A stretch of 63,497 bases of DNA, filler included, from Reclinomonas americana ATCC 50394 (lineage: Eukaryota): NCBI GenBank assembly GCA_048213135.1. It is 53 parts of 53 records of this genome, joined end to end, with 100 filler letters (N's around TTAATTAATTAA, not from the genome) between each part and the next. Parts side by side here need not be neighbours in the genome. Positions count along the whole stretch, not along the records: positions 1 to 1,111 come from AFZH01026472.1; positions 1,212 to 2,318 come from AFZH01026473.1; positions 2,419 to 3,522 come from AFZH01026474.1; positions 3,623 to 4,728 come from AFZH01026475.1; positions 4,829 to 5,934 come from AFZH01026476.1; positions 6,035 to 7,141 come from AFZH01026477.1; positions 7,242 to 8,346 come from AFZH01026478.1; positions 8,447 to 9,551 come from AFZH01026479.1; 45 more parts are not named here. One strand, written 5' to 3'. The position numbers and the translations under genes were made by a program. Below the pieces are notes generated by a model. That model did no database searches. It worked only from the letters and a program-made list of their open reading frames with translations, and was not told the DNA's origin. Of this stretch, positions 91-57,500 are shown one piece after another. The stretch's first letter is position 1, and every line of letters begins with the position of its first letter.

Positions 91-560
91 TCGTGTTTGT
101 GCGCAACTTGCCTGGAGAGGCCAATGAGGGAGACTTGCAGGGACTGGCGATGCCGTTTGGCGGAGCTGTGCGCGTGCTGTTGTTGAAGGTTGGTGGGGAG
201 TTGTCTCTGTCGTGTGAGAATGCGTCCCGTGTTCATTGTTTGTCTTGTGCGTGAGAGTAGAAGCAAGGCAAGACGCAGGGCTTTGTGCAGCTGCACTCGC
301 CGGCGCATGCGCAGCAGTTGATCACGTATCATGCCAGCATGCCGGCCATGGTGTAGTTGAGTATTTGCGTGAGCGTGTCTCGTTGAGTGCTTTTGCGTTG
401 CTGACATGCAGCGATGCACAGTGGCCAGCCCGTGTACTTTTCGTACTCTAACCGGCAAGAGATCACCGTCAACCCGCCAGGACACATGGGCGGTGGTGGT
501 GGTGGCGGCGGTGGCGGTGGTGGAATGGGTGGTGGCGGGAGCTCGGGAAGCATGATGCGG
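91..560 (+). CDS. PTB/hnRNP-L-like RRM protein, partial, spliced (exons 91-188, 261-355, 422-560)
   Basis: Spliced translation VFVRNLPGEANEGDLQGLAMPFGGAVRVLLLK-KQGKTQGFVQL...YHASMPAMVYGQPVYFSYSNRQEI resembles PTB RRM1; Gly-rich linker follows; GT-AG boundaries. Confidence 0.8.
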
Positions 561-879
561 GTGAGTAACTTGGAGAGTGGAAGAGGAGAAAGAGAGCTGC
601 AGCGAAGAGTGAGGGGTGGAAAGAGACTGAAAGAGGAAGACATAGAAGGCGGATCAGGGGCGAACCCATTTCTCTCTCCTCGCCACTCTCGTCCATTCCT
701 TCCTCCTTTCTCCTTTCTCCGCTCTTTGTGCCCTCTCCCTTTCTCCTTCCTCTCCCTCTCATCTCTCCTCCTTACCCACCTCTTCCCTCCACTTTCTTCT
801 GCCCTCTCCAAGCGTCAGCATTTCCCTTCTCCTTTATCTTTTCTCCTGTTCCTATTTTCATTTCTCGCCCTCTCCCTCC

Positions 880-1111
880 TCTCCTCTCCTCTCCTCCCCC
901 TACTCCTCCTCCCCTTCCTTCTCGCCTTTTTCTCCGTTTCCCTTCCTCCTTCGTTCCTCTTCTCTCCTCTCCTCTCTCCTCTCCTCTCCTCTCTCCTCTC
1001 CTCTCTCCTCTCTCCTCTCCTCTCCTCTCCTCTCCTCTCCTCTCCTCTCCTCTCCTCTCCTCTCTCTCCTCTCTCCTCTCCTCTCCTCTCTCCTCTCCTC
1101 TCCCTCTCCTC
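880..1111. repeat. Polypyrimidine (CTCCT/CT) microsatellite in an intron
   Basis: Direct inspection. Confidence 0.9.
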
Positions 1112-1211
1112 NNNNNNNNNNNNNNNNNNNNNNNNNNNNNNNNNNNNNNNNNNNNTTAATTAATTAANNNNNNNNNNNNNNNNNNNNNNNNNNNNNNNNN
1201 NNNNNNNNNNN

Positions 1212-2318
1212 TCCCGCGCCGGCACCTCTCACGCTGACCAACGGCATTCGCGCTCAAGTGATTGGCATCGACGGCATTAGCATTGCGCAGGTTCAGGCGT
1301 TTGCCGTCTTCGCCGACGCCGGCTGCGCCGTGTCGCCGGTCGCCCCCAACGTCAACCCGCCGGTGCTGTACGACAACGGCACTCTGACGTTCAGTCCGCA
1401 GTCACCGCTGCACCTGACGCCGGGATTCAAGTACCAGCTGTGCCAGCGTGTGCCTGGCGCTTCCGTGTTCCGCCCACTGGTGGCTCTCGGCATTGCCTCC
1501 ACGGAGACGGCCGTCATCCCGATCAACCCGTCGCGTGCTAATACGGGACAGGTGCTGTCGCCGGTGCTGGTCCGTGGTGTGGCCTTTGTCGCCGCCACCG
1601 TACCCGCCTCGTTCACTCTGGAGTACGTCTCGGATCCGACGGCTCCGTGCGCCGGAAACACGGTCAGCTGCTTCTTCTTTTGGTCAATGGCGTGTCTTGC
1701 CCCCTTCAACTCACACTTGTGTCTGTGCAATTGCAGGTGGCCAACACCGAGGTCGCGCAGTCGAGTGTCAACAACAGCGGCACTCAGATGGACCTGGTCA
1801 TCAACCTCAACCTGTTTGGCATCCCACCGCCCACTGGTGTCTACTACGTCTGCGTCAAGTGGCACAGCAACAATCCGTTCAACACGCGTGCTCCGCTGGT
1901 CAAGTTCGAGGTCGACACTGGTCTCGAGGCGCCGCCCATGCCGATCACCATCACCAACGGTGTGGCGGCTCAGGTGGTCGCCATCTCTGGCGCCGCGGTG
2001 GACTCGCTCACGTCGTTTGCGCTGTTCACCGACGAGGGTTGCCGCACTTCGCCCACTGTACCGGACCTGGAGCCGCAGATTCTCTTTGACGGCAGCTTGC
2101 TGACCTTCAGTCCGGCCGCTCCGCTGCAGCTGACGCCGGGCAAACGCTACGAGCTGTGCATGATGGTGCCGAATGGCACCGAGTGGCGCCCGTTCTCCGG
2201 CCTGCAGGCCGCCGCGGTCACCACCATTGACGAGCCGATCGTGCCGGCGTTTGCGCAGACCAACACACACCACGCCGGCCCGGTGGTGGTGCACGGTGCC
2301 GGTTTTGCGATCATCACC
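1212..2318 (+). CDS. Eukaryotic internally repeated beta-rich protein (probably extracellular), partial; intron 1663-1736
   Basis: Two homologous modules (TLTNGIRAQV...FAVFADAGC...LTFSPQSPLHLTPGFKYQLC and TITNGVAAQV...FALFTDEGC...LTFSPAAPLQLTPGKRYELC); the intron GTCAGC...TTGCAG joins two ORFs. Confidence 0.75.
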
Positions 2319-2418
2319 NNNNNNNNNNNNNNNNNNNNNNNNNNNNNNNNNNNNNNNNNNNNTTAATTAATTAANNNNNNNNNNNNNNNNNNNNNNNNNN
2401 NNNNNNNNNNNNNNNNNN

Positions 2419-54482: not shown

Positions 54483-55083
54483 ATGGCGCAGACGCAACGC
54501 AAGTTGCTGGGTGAGTTCAATGTGCATGCGTGTGTGAGAGAGAGCGCTTCGTGTGGGGCGAAGAGTGTGTGAGAGTGCGCAGAGTGCCATTTGCGGTCAC
54601 ACACACACACACGCGCACACACAAGCGCGCGTGTGTGTGCATGCATGCATTTGTTGGTGTGCGTGGGTGTGCGTGGTGCGCGCTGTTCATCATGGTGTGT
54701 GTGTCTCTGTGAGTGGAGAAGAGAGAGAGAGTTGTCCTCTTCTTCCTGTGTGTTTGTGTGTAACGAATGCCGTTGCATCTGCGCCATGTGATACATGGAA
54801 GAGAGAGTGACAAGAGAGCGAGAGTGTGCGTGGCGGGAGAGTGAGAGGGAGATGAGCATGAGCACACGCGCGCGCGCGCACTCTCTCTCTCTCTCTTTCT
54901 CCTCACTCTCTGTCTCCTTGCGTCTCACTCTTCTTCTCACACTGTGTGCGTGATGCAGCCGAAATCGACCGCACTCTGAAGAGAGTGGAAGAGGGCCTGG
55001 AGATTTACGATGACATTTGGGATAAGGTGTACTCGACGGAGAACCCCGCGCACAAGGAGAAGCACGAGGCCGAGTTGAAAAAG
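54483..55083 (+). CDS. CNOT3: CCR4-NOT subunit NOT3, N-terminus (exons 54483-54510, 54959-55083)
   Basis: RKLLAEIDRTLKRVEEGLEIYDDIWDKVY...KEKHEAELKK. Confidence 0.93.
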
Positions 55084-55325
55084 GTTGGCGCGCAAGTGTG
55101 CATTCGACCTCGGCCTCCACATCGTCCACTGAGTCNNNNNNNNNNNNNNNNNNNNNNNNNNNNNNNNNNNNNNNNNNNNTTAATTAATTAANNNNNNNNN
55201 NNNNNNNNNNNNNNNNNNNNNNNNNNNNNNNNNNNACCTCCCGTTGCACTTGTCTCCGGTCTGCATAAGCACGCACACGCACACATGCACACACACTGTG
55301 TACTGAACAGTGACCGCCACGTGCA

Positions 55326-56329
55326 GTGCCCGATCGCGAAGGATTCGCCACCTGCGATGAACACAATCATCTCATGCGTCGAGTTGTGTTGATCTTGCTC
55401 GTCTCTCTCTCTCTCTCTCACACACACACGTACACGGCTTTCCTCACTCACCGATCGCAGAGCCTGCTGGAGAACAATCCACACCTCGTGTACCGACTGT
55501 ATGAGCACATGATTCGCACGAGAACGCGACCCGATGCCACCACATTGACAATGCTGCTGTGGGCGTGCACGCTGCAAGGCAAGTTCTGGGTGGCCTTGGA
55601 CTACGTGCAGCAGATGCTGGTGGCCGGCATCGCGCCCGACGTGGTCGGCTTCAACATGCTGCTCAACGTGTGCGAGGACAGCGGCAAGACGCACTTCTTG
55701 CCGCACACGCTGGATCTCATGTGTGAACTGGGGGTGCCGCCCGACGTGCTGACCTACAACACGGTGTTTGCAAACTTGGCTCGCTCACGGTCGACTAGTG
55801 GTGGGCCGCGAATGGCGTCGTCGTTGTTGTCGTCGCCAACGTCCATGACCTTGTCGGCGGCTGCGTCGTCGCCCTCGACTCTGTTCGTGTCGCCGTTTGC
55901 GGCCGGCTATGCACCGTCGCCGAGTATGTCGGCGGAGGATCGAGCCGAGATGGCGTGGCAGATGCTGCGCCGCATGTCGGAAGATGAGCTGGCTCCGAAT
56001 GCCACCACCATCGAGTTTCTAGTGGAGATTTACGCCGCCAGCGGTGATGTGGACCGAGTTGCGTGGTGGTGGTGGTAGTGCATGCTGGTGGTGATGATGA
56101 TGAGGTGGTAGGCTCATCGCTGGAGAACAGGGCTTGCAGGTGCTGCAACTCGGGCACGAGTTGGGCATTCGGCCGCGGGTGGCATTGGTCCGACGCCTGA
56201 TGGAGAGCTGTGTGGAACGTGGAGACTTGTGTGCGGCTCTGGCGGCCATGCAGTGGGGCGAGCGCAATCGACTGCGAATGATCGGGCCGGCGTCGCTCGA
56301 CACACTCTCGCGACTCTGCTTGCGTCTCC
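55326..56329 (+). CDS. Pentatricopeptide repeat protein fragment; introns 55383-55460 and 56058-56130
   Basis: 35-aa repeats RPDATTLTMLL, GIAPDVVGFNMLL, GVPPDVLTYNTVF and LAPNATTIEFLV. Confidence 0.88.
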
Positions 56330-56429
56330 NNNNNNNNNNNNNNNNNNNNNNNNNNNNNNNNNNNNNNNNNNNNTTAATTAATTAANNNNNNNNNNNNNNN
56401 NNNNNNNNNNNNNNNNNNNNNNNNNNNNN

Positions 56430-57500
56430 TCGGTGGTGCACACGCCGGTGCACTTGAAGCTGCGATCGTCGGTCCTCAGCTTGTCGACTGTGGAATCGCA
56501 GGAGCGGCGGCGTCTCGTTCACGTTACTCCTGCTGGCGGTGCCACTGGCGTGTACGTGGAACTCGTGAGCCAGAAGGTTCCGAGCAGCAGCGGCGGTAGC
56601 GGCAACAGTGAAGGTGGCGGTGGCGAATCGGCTGAAACGGTCACCAACCTGCGCACCGAGTTCGGCAACCTGGGCATCACCATCGATCAGCGAGCCGTCC
56701 TTCCGCTCTGCCTCGGCGTCAAGCGGTGAGTCGAATCTGTGCGAGTGCGTTCACTCACTCGTCCACTGACAGTTTGTCGCTCGCAGGTGCATCATGCAAC
56801 TAAAGCCGATTCTCACGTTGCTGATGCCGCCAGTCGTGGATCGTCGACGTGCAAGTGGCAGCAGTGCCGCGAGCCCGGCGCGACGTGAGTGAGACGGTGG
56901 TGATGCTGAATGGAGAGTGCGCGGCTGTCTCGCTGACCGTGCGTATGTGTCGTCCGTTTTCCGCAGTAGCCAAGGTGGCCGCTCCACGCGTTCACGTGTC
57001 CACCTTCTTGCACGTGTTGGACTTTGAGTGGGATTTGACGCCGGCGGCTCCGTCGCCGAGTCTGGCTCTCGCCCTTCTCGCGCGGCACCCGCCCGGCACT
57101 CCGTCACCGCAGTACCGGGAGGAGTCGCAGCGTATGTTGCGACTGACGCTGCACTCGCTCTCCATGAATGGCCGCAGTGGTTTTGTCGGTGCGTGTCAAG
57201 GGTCAAGGGGTTTGGCAAGGGGTATCGTTGCTTCCTTCTTCGTTTGTTAACATGGGTGCGGCAGGAAACTTCCACTGTGAGATTCTGTCCGCATTTGAGG
57301 TGGTCCGAGGTCGACAGGCGCTCCTTATCAACTTTGAGGGCACCGATTTCCACGTCGACTCGCGCACTCCCGAGGAAATTGCGCTGTATGGCGTTGCGTC
57401 ATACACCGCACTGCACCAGTGAGGTGAAGAAAAACAGTCGTGTCTGACATGTAGTTTCTCACAGAATGCCAAGCACACGGTCACGGGACACATTCAGCTG
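56430..57500 (+). CDS. Eukaryotic beta-rich hypothetical protein, spliced fragment; last intron 57393-57464
   Basis: Successive ORFs joined by GT-AG introns. Confidence 0.5.

What the first reader, a model, noticed from the sequence alone, without database searches (positions are those of the whole stretch)
353..57393. Exon position -1 separates the two donor classes as a shifted U1 register predicts
Seen: ordinary donors here nearly always follow an exonic G (AAG|GTTGGT 189, CGG|GTGAGT 561, GAG|GTGCGT 6757, CAG|GTGCGT 13634, ACG|GTATGT 29341, TGG|GTGAGT 54511, CTG|GTGAGC 60629). Among the 18 shifted donors the -1 base is A in 11, T in 3, C in 3 and G in only 1, and several read CA|GTT (24729, 39779, 43532, 52466, 54319). 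Inference: the usual exonic (C)AG element has moved one base, with intron G+1 playing the -1 role. The shifted donor may be how this genome splices wherever the exon does not end in G. This pattern is independent of the intronic motif, which argues against chance matching.
Basis: partly seen in the sequence, partly recalled or inferred. Interest (0 to 1): 0.8.

Follow-up and report, generated by a model that had tools for sequence, protein, structure and literature searches.

The report
Splice donors read in two registers
In this unidentified microbial eukaryote about four in ten introns begin GTTGCGT after an exon that does not end in G, as if the usual splice-site signal were read one base further along, a mode that is rare in the organisms studied so far.

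Summary
The window is 53 small contigs (about 1.1 kb each) of a draft eukaryotic assembly joined by linkers. At least 10 contigs are bacterial and there are three haplotype pairs. No genome, RNA run or snRNA gene was available, so I fixed introns by homologue alignment, HMM coordinates, haplotype divergence and reading frame.

The pattern holds. Among 25 ordinary donors (G at +5), 24 follow an exonic G. Among 16 GTT donors with G at +6 (mostly GTTGCGT), 1 follows G (A 8, T 5, C 2; Fisher p = 4e-9). In the best-supported subset the counts are 11 of 11 against 0 of 7 (p = 3e-5). A parse that used no donor information gave 11 of 14 against 0 of 8 (p = 0.001).

GTT donors with G at +5 all follow G (5 of 5), so the position of the downstream G tracks the -1 base, not the T. 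Of 41 donors, 39 fit one heptamer, G[G/T]TNNG. Both classes share intron length, CAG acceptors and a branch-like motif.

A one-base register shift is the best reading. It is unproven: with a standard U1 the shifted duplexes are weak, and the strong GC preference is unexplained.

The parts
7446..7515 (-). Shifted-class intron 2 of the ribosomal protein L5 gene, CGCT|GTTGCGT...TTTTGCAG|AC, 70 nt
   Evidence: Exon 2 aligns to solved uL18 chains at residues 16-85 and exon 3 starts at residue 87; the split codon T+AC supplies residue 86. Pfam positions are 3-72 and 74-121. There is no gap against 10 homologues.
7728..7826 (-). Ordinary intron 1 of the L5 gene, CG|GTGCGT, 99 nt
   Evidence: The spliced model aligns without a gap to 10 homologues; sequence.
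13867..13952 (+). Shifted-class intron 3 of a class-III aminotransferase (GabT-like) gene, CTCT|GTTGCGA, 86 nt
   Evidence: Exon 3 aligns to its last residue with solved GabT/PuuE chains, and residue 50 of 51 sits at 391 of 426 in 1szs_A, leaving 35 residues. The model also has 35 left: 1 + the split codon + 33. A frame change is required.
13448..13511 (+). Ordinary intron 1 of the GabT-like gene, ATG|GTGACG, 64 nt
   Evidence: Pfam Aminotran_3 coordinates are contiguous within one residue; PDB alignment.
13634..13712 (+). Ordinary intron 2 of the GabT-like gene, CAG|GTGCGT, 79 nt
   Evidence: Pfam positions 330 and 331 are contiguous across the junction.
42513..42570 (-). Shifted-class intron 3 of a VPS35L-like gene, AAT|GTTGCGT, 58 nt
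   Evidence: In a MAFFT alignment with 9 homologues this donor gives no gap, whereas the alternative donor at 42555 adds 5 residues absent from all 9.
43001..43059 (-). Ordinary intron 1 of the VPS35L-like gene, GGG|GTGCGT, 59 nt
   Evidence: No gap at the junction against 9 homologues.
42790..42853 (-). Ordinary intron 2 of the VPS35L-like gene, TTG|GTTCGT (T at +3 but G at +5), 64 nt
   Evidence: No gap at the junction against 9 homologues.
43532..43601 (+). Shifted-class intron 1 of the ORC5 gene, GCA|GTTGCGT, 70 nt; haplotype copy at 50706-50778 (73 nt)
   Evidence: Substitutions and indels between the two haplotype contigs cluster here. The rival GT at 43548 is absent from the other haplotype. 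Pfam ORC5_lid and ORC5_C lie on the flanking exons.
43737..43804 (+). Ordinary intron 2 of the ORC5 gene, CTG|GTATGC, 68 nt; haplotype copy at 50914-50981
   Evidence: A frame change is required. I chose this donor among in-phase GTs by its intronic motif; the donor-blind parse chose T|GTGCTTG, 12 nt downstream.
52377..52466 (-). Shifted-class intron, GCA|GTTACGA, 90 nt; haplotype copy at 59539-59628
   Evidence: There is a stop 3 codons after the donor and a 239-codon open frame after the acceptor. Haplotype differences cluster in the intron's 3' half. Both exons match one 1919-residue homologue in order, but that homologue does not span the junction.
56058..56130 (+). Shifted-class intron in a PPR-repeat gene, CGA|GTTGCGT, 73 nt
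   Evidence: Read-through hits a stop after 6 codons. The donor-blind parse picks this intron. The junction keeps the 35-residue PPR spacing, which is an inference. Pfam finds PPR on the upstream exon only.
356..421 (+). Shifted-class intron 2 of a PTB-like RRM gene, GTA|GTTGAGT, 66 nt
   Evidence: TA plus the intron's G forms an in-frame TAG. With this donor the model aligns without a gap to homologue P0148 (42% identity over 81 residues); the GT three bases upstream needs a 1-residue gap.
189..260 (+). Ordinary intron 1 of the PTB-like gene, AAG|GTTGGT; acceptor uncertain (TAG at 260 or CAG at 278)
   Evidence: both acceptors leave an indel against the homologue; the donor is the same in both.
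6757..6887 (+). Ordinary intron in an EF-hand gene, GAG|GTGCGT, 131 nt
   Evidence: Exon 2 starts at position 5 of EF-hand_1 and position 7 of EF-hand_7; model.
29341..29418 (+). Ordinary intron 3 of a WDR48-like gene (DUF3337), ACG|GTATGT, 78 nt; further ordinary donors at 28999 (CGG|GTATGT) and 29149 (GCG|GTGAGG)
   Evidence: Extending the matched stretches to the exon ends makes DUF3337 positions 143/144 contiguous across the junction; open spliced model.
54511..54958 (+). Ordinary intron 1 of a NOT3-like gene, CTGG|GTGAGT, 448 nt; next donor at 55084 is AAG|GTTGGC
   Evidence: Exon 2 matches the Not3 profile from position 8 at its first residue. The donor is the first in-phase GT after the ATG exon.
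1663..1736 (+). Ordinary intron, ACG|GTCAGC, 74 nt; haplotype copy at 33084-33151(-) is ACG|GTAAGC, 68 nt
   Evidence: 23 of 74 intron columns differ between haplotypes, against 17 of 1033 elsewhere.
31538..31608 (-). Ordinary intron, CAGG|GTATGC, 71 nt
   Evidence: The frame change is needed to keep the downstream hydrophobic segment and tail in frame.
57393..57464 (+). Shifted-class candidate, GGC|GTTGCGT, 72 nt
   Evidence: Ab initio only: read-through stops after 10 codons and the donor-blind parse picks it.
49871..49931 (-). Shifted-class candidate, AGA|GTTGCGT, 61 nt; a second candidate at 49649-49714 is TGG|GTTGCGT, the only shifted donor after G
   Evidence: Ab initio only.
24729..24811 (+). 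Shifted-class candidate, CCA|GTTGCGT, 83 nt; a second candidate at 24913-24973 is CGA|GTTTCGT
   Evidence: Ab initio only, with modest coding scores.
35646..35725 (-). Shifted-class candidate, CGC|GTTGCGT, 80 nt; a second candidate at 34950-35027 is ACT|GTTGCGA
   Evidence: Chosen by motif and typical length; the donor-blind parse chose other GTs.
22559..22621 (-). Likely exception: ordinary donor after T, TCT|GTGCGT, 63 nt, in a repeat-protein gene
   Evidence: The intron has GTGCGT, CTAAC and GCAG, and its removal restores the repeat pattern of the protein. It is in-frame and read-through is open, so it is not proven.

Best explanation
These are ordinary GT-AG spliceosomal introns of an unidentified, intron-rich, fairly GC-rich eukaryote. 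Their 5' splice sites share one recognition template, G-[G/U]-U-N-N-G-U, which is read in two positions relative to the cut.

If the exon ends in G, the template starts at -1 (G|GUNNGY). If it does not, the template starts at +1 (H|GUUGCGU), so intron G+1 takes the place of exonic G-1 and the conserved downstream G sits at +6 instead of +5.

The most likely mechanism is early recognition in a register displaced by one nucleotide. That recognition would be by the U1 snRNA 5' end, with C9 on the first G, A7 on the U at template position 3, and C4/A3 on the GU at positions 6-7. The cut itself would be set later at the first GU, as in the human '+1 shifted' sites.

Shown: the intron positions, the association, and the common 3' signals.
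For: Junctions fixed by homologue alignment or HMM coordinates:
- L5.
- GabT-like.
- VPS35L-like.
- PTB-like.

Junctions fixed by haplotype divergence and frame: ORC5 and contigs 44/50 and 2/28.

Association of -1 with class:
- 24 of 25 against 1 of 16, p = 3.9e-9.
- Best subset 11 of 11 against 0 of 7, p = 3.1e-5.
- Donor-blind parse 11 of 14 against 0 of 8, p = 0.001.

Internal control: GTT donors with G+5 follow G in 5 of 5; GTT donors with G+6 follow G in 1 of 16, p = 0.0003. Also, 39 of 41 donors fit G[G/T]TNNG.

A at -1 occurs in 8 of 16 shifted donors (p = 0.011).

With the U1 5' end AUACUUACCUG (printed in PMC4856993), register +1 beats register 0 in 16 of 16 shifted donors and in 0 of 25 ordinary donors.

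Both classes share median length (72 and 69.5 nt), CAG acceptors (15 of 15 and 19 of 20) and a CT[CGA]A[CT] motif 12-40 nt upstream of the acceptor (13 of 15 and 12 of 20).

GTTGCGT occurs 22 times against 9.8 +/- 3.1 in shuffles, with 0 of 100 shuffles reaching 22.
Against: - No RNA evidence and no snRNA gene from this organism.
- With a standard U1 the shifted duplexes are weak: median +1.1 kcal/mol, against -6.0 for ordinary donors in register 0. This is a rough ungapped evaluation without pseudouridine.
- Pairing energy does not explain why a non-G exon end is followed by GTTGCGT rather than GTGCGT.
- Shifted donors prefer GC over GA at +4+5 (12 against 2 of 16), although A would pair with a standard U1. 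Ordinary donors have GA 8 and GC 6 of 25.
- The -1 composition of shifted donors does not differ significantly from the -2 composition of ordinary donors, which is flat, so a moved 'CAG' is not shown (p = 0.19).
- The sample is small: 41 donors from about 47 kb of host sequence.
- 23 of the 41 donors rest on ab initio models that I curated knowing the hypothesis.
- Ambiguous cases that would count against the pattern if real: A|GTGAGT in contig 49 and C|GTGAGT in contig 41.
Confidence: 0.5

Rival explanations
1. Compensation without any U1 shift. This would be the general 'seesaw' or two-class architecture of 5' splice sites: an exon-side class with G at -1 and a weak intron side, and an intron-side class with any exon end and a strong intron motif. 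Here the intron-side class would have a lineage-specific consensus, GUUGCGU, read by U6, a protein or another step. The -1 base differs only because G at -1 makes the strong intron motif unnecessary.
For: - PMC11732430 (section 4 read) describes anticorrelated AG//GUNNN and NN//GURAG classes in several animals and Arabidopsis, at about 1:1 in metazoans.
- Here ordinary donors are degenerate at +3, +4 and +6, while shifted donors are nearly invariant from +3 to +7.
- The weak standard-U1 duplexes and the GC preference fit a reader other than U1.
Against: - It does not explain why the conserved G moves from +5 to +6 exactly when -1 is not G, nor why GTT donors with G at +5 all follow G (5 of 5 against 1 of 16).
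- A non-G exon end followed by a strong ordinary motif (GTGAGT or GTGCGT), which this model expects to be common, was seen once with fair support (22621) and twice as ambiguous alternatives.
Confidence: 0.22
2. A different reader. The organism would have a diverged U1, a second U1 variant, or a minor-spliceosome-like snRNA whose 5' end is complementary to GUUGCGU in its own normal register. The two classes would then be served by two particles or two pairing modes of an altered snRNA.
For: - Lineage-specific U1 changes that match unusual donors are reported for Entamoeba (ACAAAC with GUUUGU) and Mastigamoeba (ACGUAC with GUACGU) in bioRxiv 10.1101/2022.06.08.495308 (passages read).
- The near-invariant 7-nt intron motif with no exon consensus resembles the architecture of U12-type donors.
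- The GC preference (12 of 16) would fit a G-C-containing partner.
Against: - The same preprint reports a standard U1 in lineages that prefer C at +4 (Thecamonas, Mamiellales with GYGCGY).
- Both classes share acceptor, branch-like motif and length.
- No U12-type donor or branch consensus is present.
- No snRNA was found in the window, so this is untested rather than refuted.
Confidence: 0.13
3. Artefact. The pattern would come from chance motif matches, curation bias, haplotype double counting, or homopolymer errors that add a T in a draft assembly.
For: - The window is made of short unplaced contigs.
- Several GTTGCGT copies are certainly not donors: 54498(-) is antisense to the NOT3 exon, and 52351/59513(+) are antisense to the contig 44/50 gene.
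- 23 of 41 donors are ab initio.
- The model-free count for ordinary motifs is swamped by GT microsatellites.
Against: - Four shifted donors are fixed by homologue alignments.
- Both haplotype copies carry the same GTT donors.
- The donor-blind parse reproduces the association.
- An inserted T would not change the -1 base.
- The motif is enriched over shuffles.
Confidence: 0.05

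Closest known systems
Human '+1 shifted register' 5' splice sites (cited as reference 10 in PMC4856993; passages read)
   Same: The intron starts GU followed by an extra U, and the U1-complementary block lies one base further into the intron. G+1 can pair with the U1 C that normally faces -1, while the cut stays at the GU.
   Different: - In human, all validated noncanonical registers together are about 1.5% of 5' splice sites (PMC4856993). 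Here the class is 16 of 41 curated donors and 7 of 18 in the best subset.
- The core here is GCGU rather than AAGU, so pairing to a standard U1 is weak.
- No suppressor-U1 or RNA test exists for this organism.
Two 5' splice site classes, AG//GUNNN and NN//GURAG (PMC11732430; section 4 read)
   Same: There is an either/or relation between G at -1 and a strong intron-side motif, and the two classes are of comparable size.
   Different: The intron-side class here is not GURAG. Its conserved G is at +6, T at +3 is invariant, and G at -1 is almost excluded rather than merely dispensable.
Lineage-specific donor consensus with or without a co-evolved U1: Entamoeba GUUUGU, Mastigamoeba GUACGU, Mamiellales GYGCGY, Thecamonas C at +4 (bioRxiv 10.1101/2022.06.08.495308; passages read)
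   Same: The donor core is unusual, with C at +4 (GTGCGT is the commonest ordinary hexamer here). The same question arises of whether U1 has followed the splice sites.
   Different: Those cases describe one consensus per genome, whereas here two registers coexist in the same genes (L5, GabT-like, VPS35L-like, ORC5, PTB-like).
U1 register with a bulged U at +2/+3 (PMC4856993, figure 1C legend)
   Same: A GUU start can equally be drawn with G+1:C8, U:A7 and one U bulged.
   Different: That register keeps the -1:C9 pair and so should still favour G at -1; here G at -1 occurs in 1 of 16.
U12-type (minor spliceosome) introns
   Same: A long, nearly invariant intron-side donor motif with no exon-side consensus.
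   Different: The donor and branch consensus of U12-type introns (recalled, not from a call) are absent. The 3' signals equal those of the ordinary class.

Membership tests
U2-type GT-AG spliceosomal introns | Removal restores a conserved protein or an open frame, with GT and AG at the ends | tested here: met
   L5, GabT-like, VPS35L-like, PTB-like, and the WDR48-like, NOT3-like and EF-hand genes. My parsers allowed only GT..AG, so other end pairs were not examined.
U2-type GT-AG spliceosomal introns | Branch-site-like motif and pyrimidine-rich 3' end before YAG | tested here: met
   CT[CGA]A[CT] lies 12-40 nt before the acceptor in 25 of 35 introns, and 34 of 35 acceptors are CAG.
U2-type GT-AG spliceosomal introns | Spliced junctions seen in RNA | not testable with these tools
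   No RNA run was listed and no genome is held.
+1 shifted-register 5' splice sites | More pairing to the U1 5' end in the +1 register than in the canonical one | tested here: met
   16 of 16 shifted donors, against 0 of 25 ordinary donors. This assumes a standard U1, is partly circular, and the absolute energies are weak (median +1.1 kcal/mol).
+1 shifted-register 5' splice sites | Exon -1 takes the preference of canonical -2 (A) and G at -1 is not needed | tested here: inconclusive
   A in 8 of 16 (p = 0.011 against background) and G in 1 of 16. However, canonical -2 in this organism is flat (A 7 of 25), and the two distributions do not differ (p = 0.19).
+1 shifted-register 5' splice sites | Rescue of donor mutations only by U1 suppressors designed for the shifted register | not testable with these tools
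   This is an experiment, and the organism and its U1 are unknown.
Bulged-U (+2/+3) U1 register | The -1:C9 pair is kept, so G at -1 stays favoured | tested here: not met
   G at -1 in 1 of 16 shifted donors.
NN//GURAG intron-side 5' splice site class | GURAG at +1 to +5 with G at +5 | tested here: not met
   Shifted donors have T at +3 in 16 of 16, C or A at +5 in 16 of 16, and G at +6 in 16 of 16. This follows partly from the class rule.
NN//GURAG intron-side 5' splice site class | Anticorrelation between G at -1 and the strength of the intron-side motif | tested here: met
   Ordinary donors are degenerate at +3, +4 and +6, while shifted donors are nearly invariant from +3 to +7.
U12-type introns | U12-type donor and branch consensus (recalled from knowledge) | tested here: not met
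   None of the 16 shifted donors or their 3' regions shows it.

The most novel reading that the evidence does not exclude
This eukaryote uses a one-nucleotide-shifted 5' splice site register as a major, genome-wide mode, for roughly 40% of introns. It is deployed whenever the exon does not end in G. That would mean its spliceosome insists on a G opposite one particular U1 position (C9) but is indifferent to whether that G is the last exon base or the first intron base. Cut-site choice would then be fully uncoupled from the U1 register.
Probability: 0.4. Interest if true: 0.85.

Novelty: new variant of a known kind. Interest (0 to 1): 0.7.

Why it matters
Shifted and bulged U1 registers are known from a small percentage of human splice sites and were proven one site at a time. 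A genome where two registers split the introns about 60:40, often within one gene, would be a natural experiment on three questions: how the cut site is chosen after U1 leaves, which U1 contacts are truly required, and how splice-site signals and exon ends co-evolve. It also matters in practice. Gene predictors trained on a single donor matrix would misplace or miss about four in ten donors in this organism.

Tried and rejected
- Whole genome: none is held.
- RNA runs: none was listed for 6035-15570.
- Earlier scan notes: none.
- Rfam on the whole window: no hit, so no U1, U6 or rRNA.
- Model-free -1 counts around GTGNGT and GTGCGT: unusable, because GT and GA microsatellites dominate.
- First parser settings gave no introns. 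Parses with a motif bonus or donor-blind gave many doubtful calls in weakly coding contigs.
- Contig 23 was dropped as mobile-element-like, and contig 24 for strand ambiguity.
- PDB search with GabT exon 3 at E 1e-6: nothing, because the threshold was too strict; repeated at E 10.
- PDB searches with PTB-like exons 2 and 3: nothing useful, only glycine-rich linkers.
- Homologue search for the contig 44 protein: one distant 1919-residue protein that matches both exons in order but has about 156 residues where the model has 20, so the junction is not tested.
- L5 homologue search: best identity 80%, so the organism was not identified.
- Pfam on the PPR downstream exon and on ORC5 exon 1: no family.
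- The 6-mer GTTGMG is not enriched (85 against 87.5).
- Literature: a whole-word search for GTTGCGT, GUUGCGU, GTTGAGT, GUUGAGU, GTTGCG and GUUGCG found no paper on splicing. Searches on shifted registers and on GYGCGY/GTGCGT/Thecamonas found no report of such a class. Supplements were not consulted.
- Considered and rejected: boundaries slid by one base (this breaks the conserved Tyr codon in L5 and GabT), introner-like repeats (no similarity beyond the heptamer), and a homopolymer sequencing error (it would not change -1, and both haplotypes agree).

Full report
WHAT THE WINDOW IS

The 63,497 bases are 53 contigs of 1,111 down to 1,093 bases. They are sorted by length and joined by 44 N + TTAATTAATTAA + 44 N. 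At least ten contigs are bacterial by Pfam content and composition. Their families include TetR, a response regulator, LptF/G, an amino-acid permease, TadE, OmpA, an MmyB-like regulator, glyoxalase and an aminotransferase.

The other 43 contigs (about 47 kb) belong to a eukaryote with short introns, GC-biased third codon positions and many CT, GT and GA microsatellites. Three pairs of contigs are haplotype copies at 96.4-97.4% identity: 2/28 in reverse orientation, 37/43 and 44/50.

- No whole genome is held.
- No RNA run was listed.
- No Rfam family is present in the window.
- The scan holds no earlier notes.
- The best database match of a 70-residue L5 exon is 80% identical, so the organism stays unidentified.

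CHECKING THE COORDINATES

All fourteen cited positions carry the stated letters; three are on the minus strand. GTTGNGT occurs 43 times on both strands. GTTGCGT occurs 22 times against 9.8 +/- 3.1 in dinucleotide shuffles, with none of 100 shuffles reaching 22, and no copy lies in a bacterial contig. The hexamer GTTGMG is not enriched (85 against 87.5).

Some copies are certainly not donors. 54498(-) is antisense to the first exon of a NOT3-like gene. 52351 and 59513 (+) are antisense to the gene on contigs 44/50.

FIXING INTRONS WITHOUT RNA

I used four independent kinds of evidence.

(a) Homologue alignment and HMM coordinates.
- L5 gene (contig 7, minus strand). Exon 2 aligns end to end with residues 16-85 of solved uL18 chains, and exon 3 starts at residue 87. 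The split codon T|AC supplies residue 86. Pfam positions are 3-72 and 74-121. The spliced model aligns without a gap to ten homologues at both junctions. The two donors are CG|GTGCGT (7826) and CT|GTTGCGT (7515).
- GabT-like gene (contig 12). Pfam coordinates are contiguous at intron 2 and within one residue at intron 1. Exon 3 aligns to its last residue with solved GabT/PuuE chains. The 35 residues left in the 426-residue chain after the aligned Gly equal the 35 left in the model. The donors are ATG|GTGACG, CAG|GTGCGT and CT|GTTGCGA.
- VPS35L-like gene (contig 36). A MAFFT alignment with nine homologues shows no gap at GG|GTGCGT, TG|GTTCGT and AT|GTTGCGT. The alternative donor at 42555 would add five residues absent from all nine.
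- PTB-like RRM gene (contig 1). The donor TA|GTTGAGT gives an ungapped alignment to one homologue (42% identity over 81 residues). The GT three bases upstream needs a gap.
- Other genes. Pfam coordinates also support ACG|GTATGT in a WDR48-like gene, the acceptor of CTGG|GTGAGT in a NOT3-like gene, and GAG|GTGCGT in an EF-hand gene.

(b) Haplotype divergence. Differences cluster in the inferred introns:
- 23 of 74 columns against 17 of 1033 for contigs 2/28.
- 16 of 141 against 27 of 959 for contigs 37/43.
- 20 of 161 against 18 of 933 for contigs 44/50.

In ORC5 the rival GT at 43548 is absent from the second haplotype, which leaves CA|GTTGCGT as the shared donor.

(c) Reading frame. At 52466(-) a stop follows the donor by three codons, and a 239-codon open frame follows the acceptor. 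At 56058(+) read-through stops after six codons, and the junction keeps the spacing of the PPR repeat. The spacing argument is an inference.

(d) Parsers. A dynamic-programming parser scored only codon usage, open frames and YAG acceptors, and gave no score to any donor base beyond GT.

THE ASSOCIATION

I defined the classes from intron bases only. Shifted means T at +3, no G at +5 and G at +6; everything else is ordinary. Haplotype copies were counted once.

| Set | Ordinary: G at -1 | Shifted: G at -1 | Fisher p |
|---|---|---|---|
| Best-supported | 11 of 11 | 0 of 7 (A 4, T 3) | 3.1e-5 |
| All curated | 24 of 25 | 1 of 16 (A 8, T 5, C 2, G 1) | 3.9e-9 |
| Homologue- or HMM-fixed only | 8 of 8 | 0 of 4 | 0.002 (1/495, my own arithmetic) |
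| Donor-blind parse, no curation | 11 of 14 | 0 of 8 | 0.001 |

For the donor-blind parse I dropped contig 23 and the second haplotype copies, and kept contigs with a clear dominant strand. Twelve further calls fell in neither class, and most of those are probably wrong boundaries.

The all-curated set includes 23 ab initio donors. Of these, 5 have no acceptor inside their contig.

In one best-set case, ORC5 intron 2, I chose the donor among in-phase GTs by its intron motif.

Cases that count or could count against the pattern:
- TCT|GTGCGT at 22621(-), likely real.
- TGG|GTTGCGT at 49714(-).
- Two ambiguous alternatives, A|GTGAGT in contig 49 and C|GTGAGT in contig 41.

WHAT DISTINGUISHES THE CLASSES

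The T at +3 is not the discriminator. Five GTT donors with G at +5 all follow G, whereas sixteen with G at +6 follow G once (p = 0.0003). Counted from -1 in ordinary donors and from +1 in shifted donors, 39 of 41 fit G[G/T]TNNG, and 33 also have T or C in the seventh place.

The two classes coexist in the same genes. They share:
- median intron length (69.5 and 72 nt);
- CAG acceptors (19 of 20 and 15 of 15);
- a CT[CGA]A[CT] motif 12-40 nt upstream of the acceptor (12 of 20 and 13 of 15, p = 0.13).

This argues for one spliceosome at the 3' end.

MECHANISM

I evaluated ungapped duplexes with the U1 5' end printed in that paper. The +1 register is better for 16 of 16 shifted donors, and the canonical register for 25 of 25 ordinary donors. 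This is partly circular.

The alternative drawing with a bulged U keeps the -1:C9 pair and predicts G at -1. That is not seen (1 of 16). A at -1 is enriched (8 of 16, p = 0.011), as expected if -1 now faces the U that normally faces -2.

Three observations do not fit a simple pairing-energy account:
- The shifted duplexes are weak (median +1.1 against -6.0 kcal/mol).
- A non-G exon end followed by GTGCGT should pair at least as well, yet is rare.
- Shifted donors prefer GC at +4+5 (12 of 16), while ordinary donors have GC at +3+4 in 6 of 25 (p = 0.003). A standard U1 would favour A there.

Ordinary donors show no (C)A preference at -3/-2, so 'the CAG element has moved' is not shown. What moves is the G. 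I therefore hold the register shift at about 0.5. The rivals are compensation between exon and intron sides without a U1 shift (PMC11732430), a diverged or second snRNA (precedents in bioRxiv 10.1101/2022.06.08.495308), and artefact.

COMPARISON WITH WHAT IS KNOWN

- Shifted and bulged registers together account for about 1.5% of human 5' splice sites (PMC4856993).
- Two anticorrelated classes defined by G at -1 or by GURAG are described in animals and Arabidopsis (PMC11732430).
- Donors with C at +4 and a standard U1 are described for Mamiellales and Thecamonas, and co-evolved U1 for Entamoeba and Mastigamoeba.
- I found no paper that names GTTGCGT or GUUGCGU as a splice signal, and none that describes a genome with a large shifted class. 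The library is incomplete and I did not consult supplements.

This is best filed as a new variant of a known kind: a known rare register, apparently used for about 39% of introns (16 of 41; 7 of 18 in the best set).

VERDICT

The decisive data are transcript junctions and the organism's snRNA genes.

Noticed in passing
window 1-63497: The window is not one locus. It is 53 contigs of 1,111 to 1,093 bases, sorted by length and joined by 44 N + TTAATTAATTAA + 44 N linkers, so features cannot span contig borders.
   Followed up: yes
contigs at 2419-5934, 16875-17977, 20486-21587, 22890-23990, 33702-34800, 36100-37198, 40895-41989, 52851-53941: High-GC contigs with long unbroken ORFs, most with bacterial Pfam families (TetR, response regulator, LptF/G, amino-acid permease, TadE, OmpA, MmyB-like regulator, glyoxalase, class I/II aminotransferase). 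They are probably contaminants or co-cultured bacteria in the assembly.
   Followed up: partly
1212-2318 vs 32502-33601 (reverse); 43289-44385 vs 50463-51556; 51657-52750 vs 58819-59912: Three contig pairs are 96.4-97.4% identical, with differences and indels concentrated in introns. They are likely the two haplotypes of a heterozygous genome, and any count over the window double-counts them.
   Followed up: yes
26498-27599 (-): The long ORF has a cysteine/histidine motif and a look typical of a mobile-element protein. There was no Pfam hit. The introns predicted inside it were not trusted and the contig was left out of the counts.
   Followed up: no
shifted-class donors, e.g. 7515(-), 42570(-), 43532(+), 56058(+), 57393(+): Shifted donors carry GC at +4+5 in 12 of 16, whereas ordinary donors carry GC at +3+4 in 6 of 25 and GA in 8 of 25. 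This preference is the opposite of what pairing to a standard U1 would select, and it is unexplained.
   Followed up: partly
39774-39779 (-): The GTTGAGT motif contains TGA. Here it coincides with the first in-frame stop of a 240-codon open frame, so it may be a stop codon rather than a donor.
   Followed up: partly
7242-8346 (-), upstream of 7867: The L5 coding exon that starts after the acceptor at 7868 lacks a start codon. The initiator ATG must lie in a separate upstream exon, which I could not place.
   Followed up: no
49270-50362 (-); 60013-61109 (+); 569-1111 (+): There are long pentamer and heptamer microsatellites (TTCCC repeats, a GAGAGGC-like repeat) and CT-rich tracts of several hundred bases that follow donors at 561 and 60629. 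The contigs break inside them, which probably explains why these pieces stayed unplaced.
   Followed up: no
10855-11958: This contig has 43% GC, well below the rest, and a 292-codon open frame (10981-11856, +) with no Pfam family. Its origin is unknown.
   Followed up: no
7517-7726 (-): The best identity of this highly conserved L5 exon to any of 5.8 billion database proteins is 80%, to a jakobid entry. The VPS35L-like exon reaches 57%. The lineage seems poorly sampled and unannotated.
   Followed up: partly
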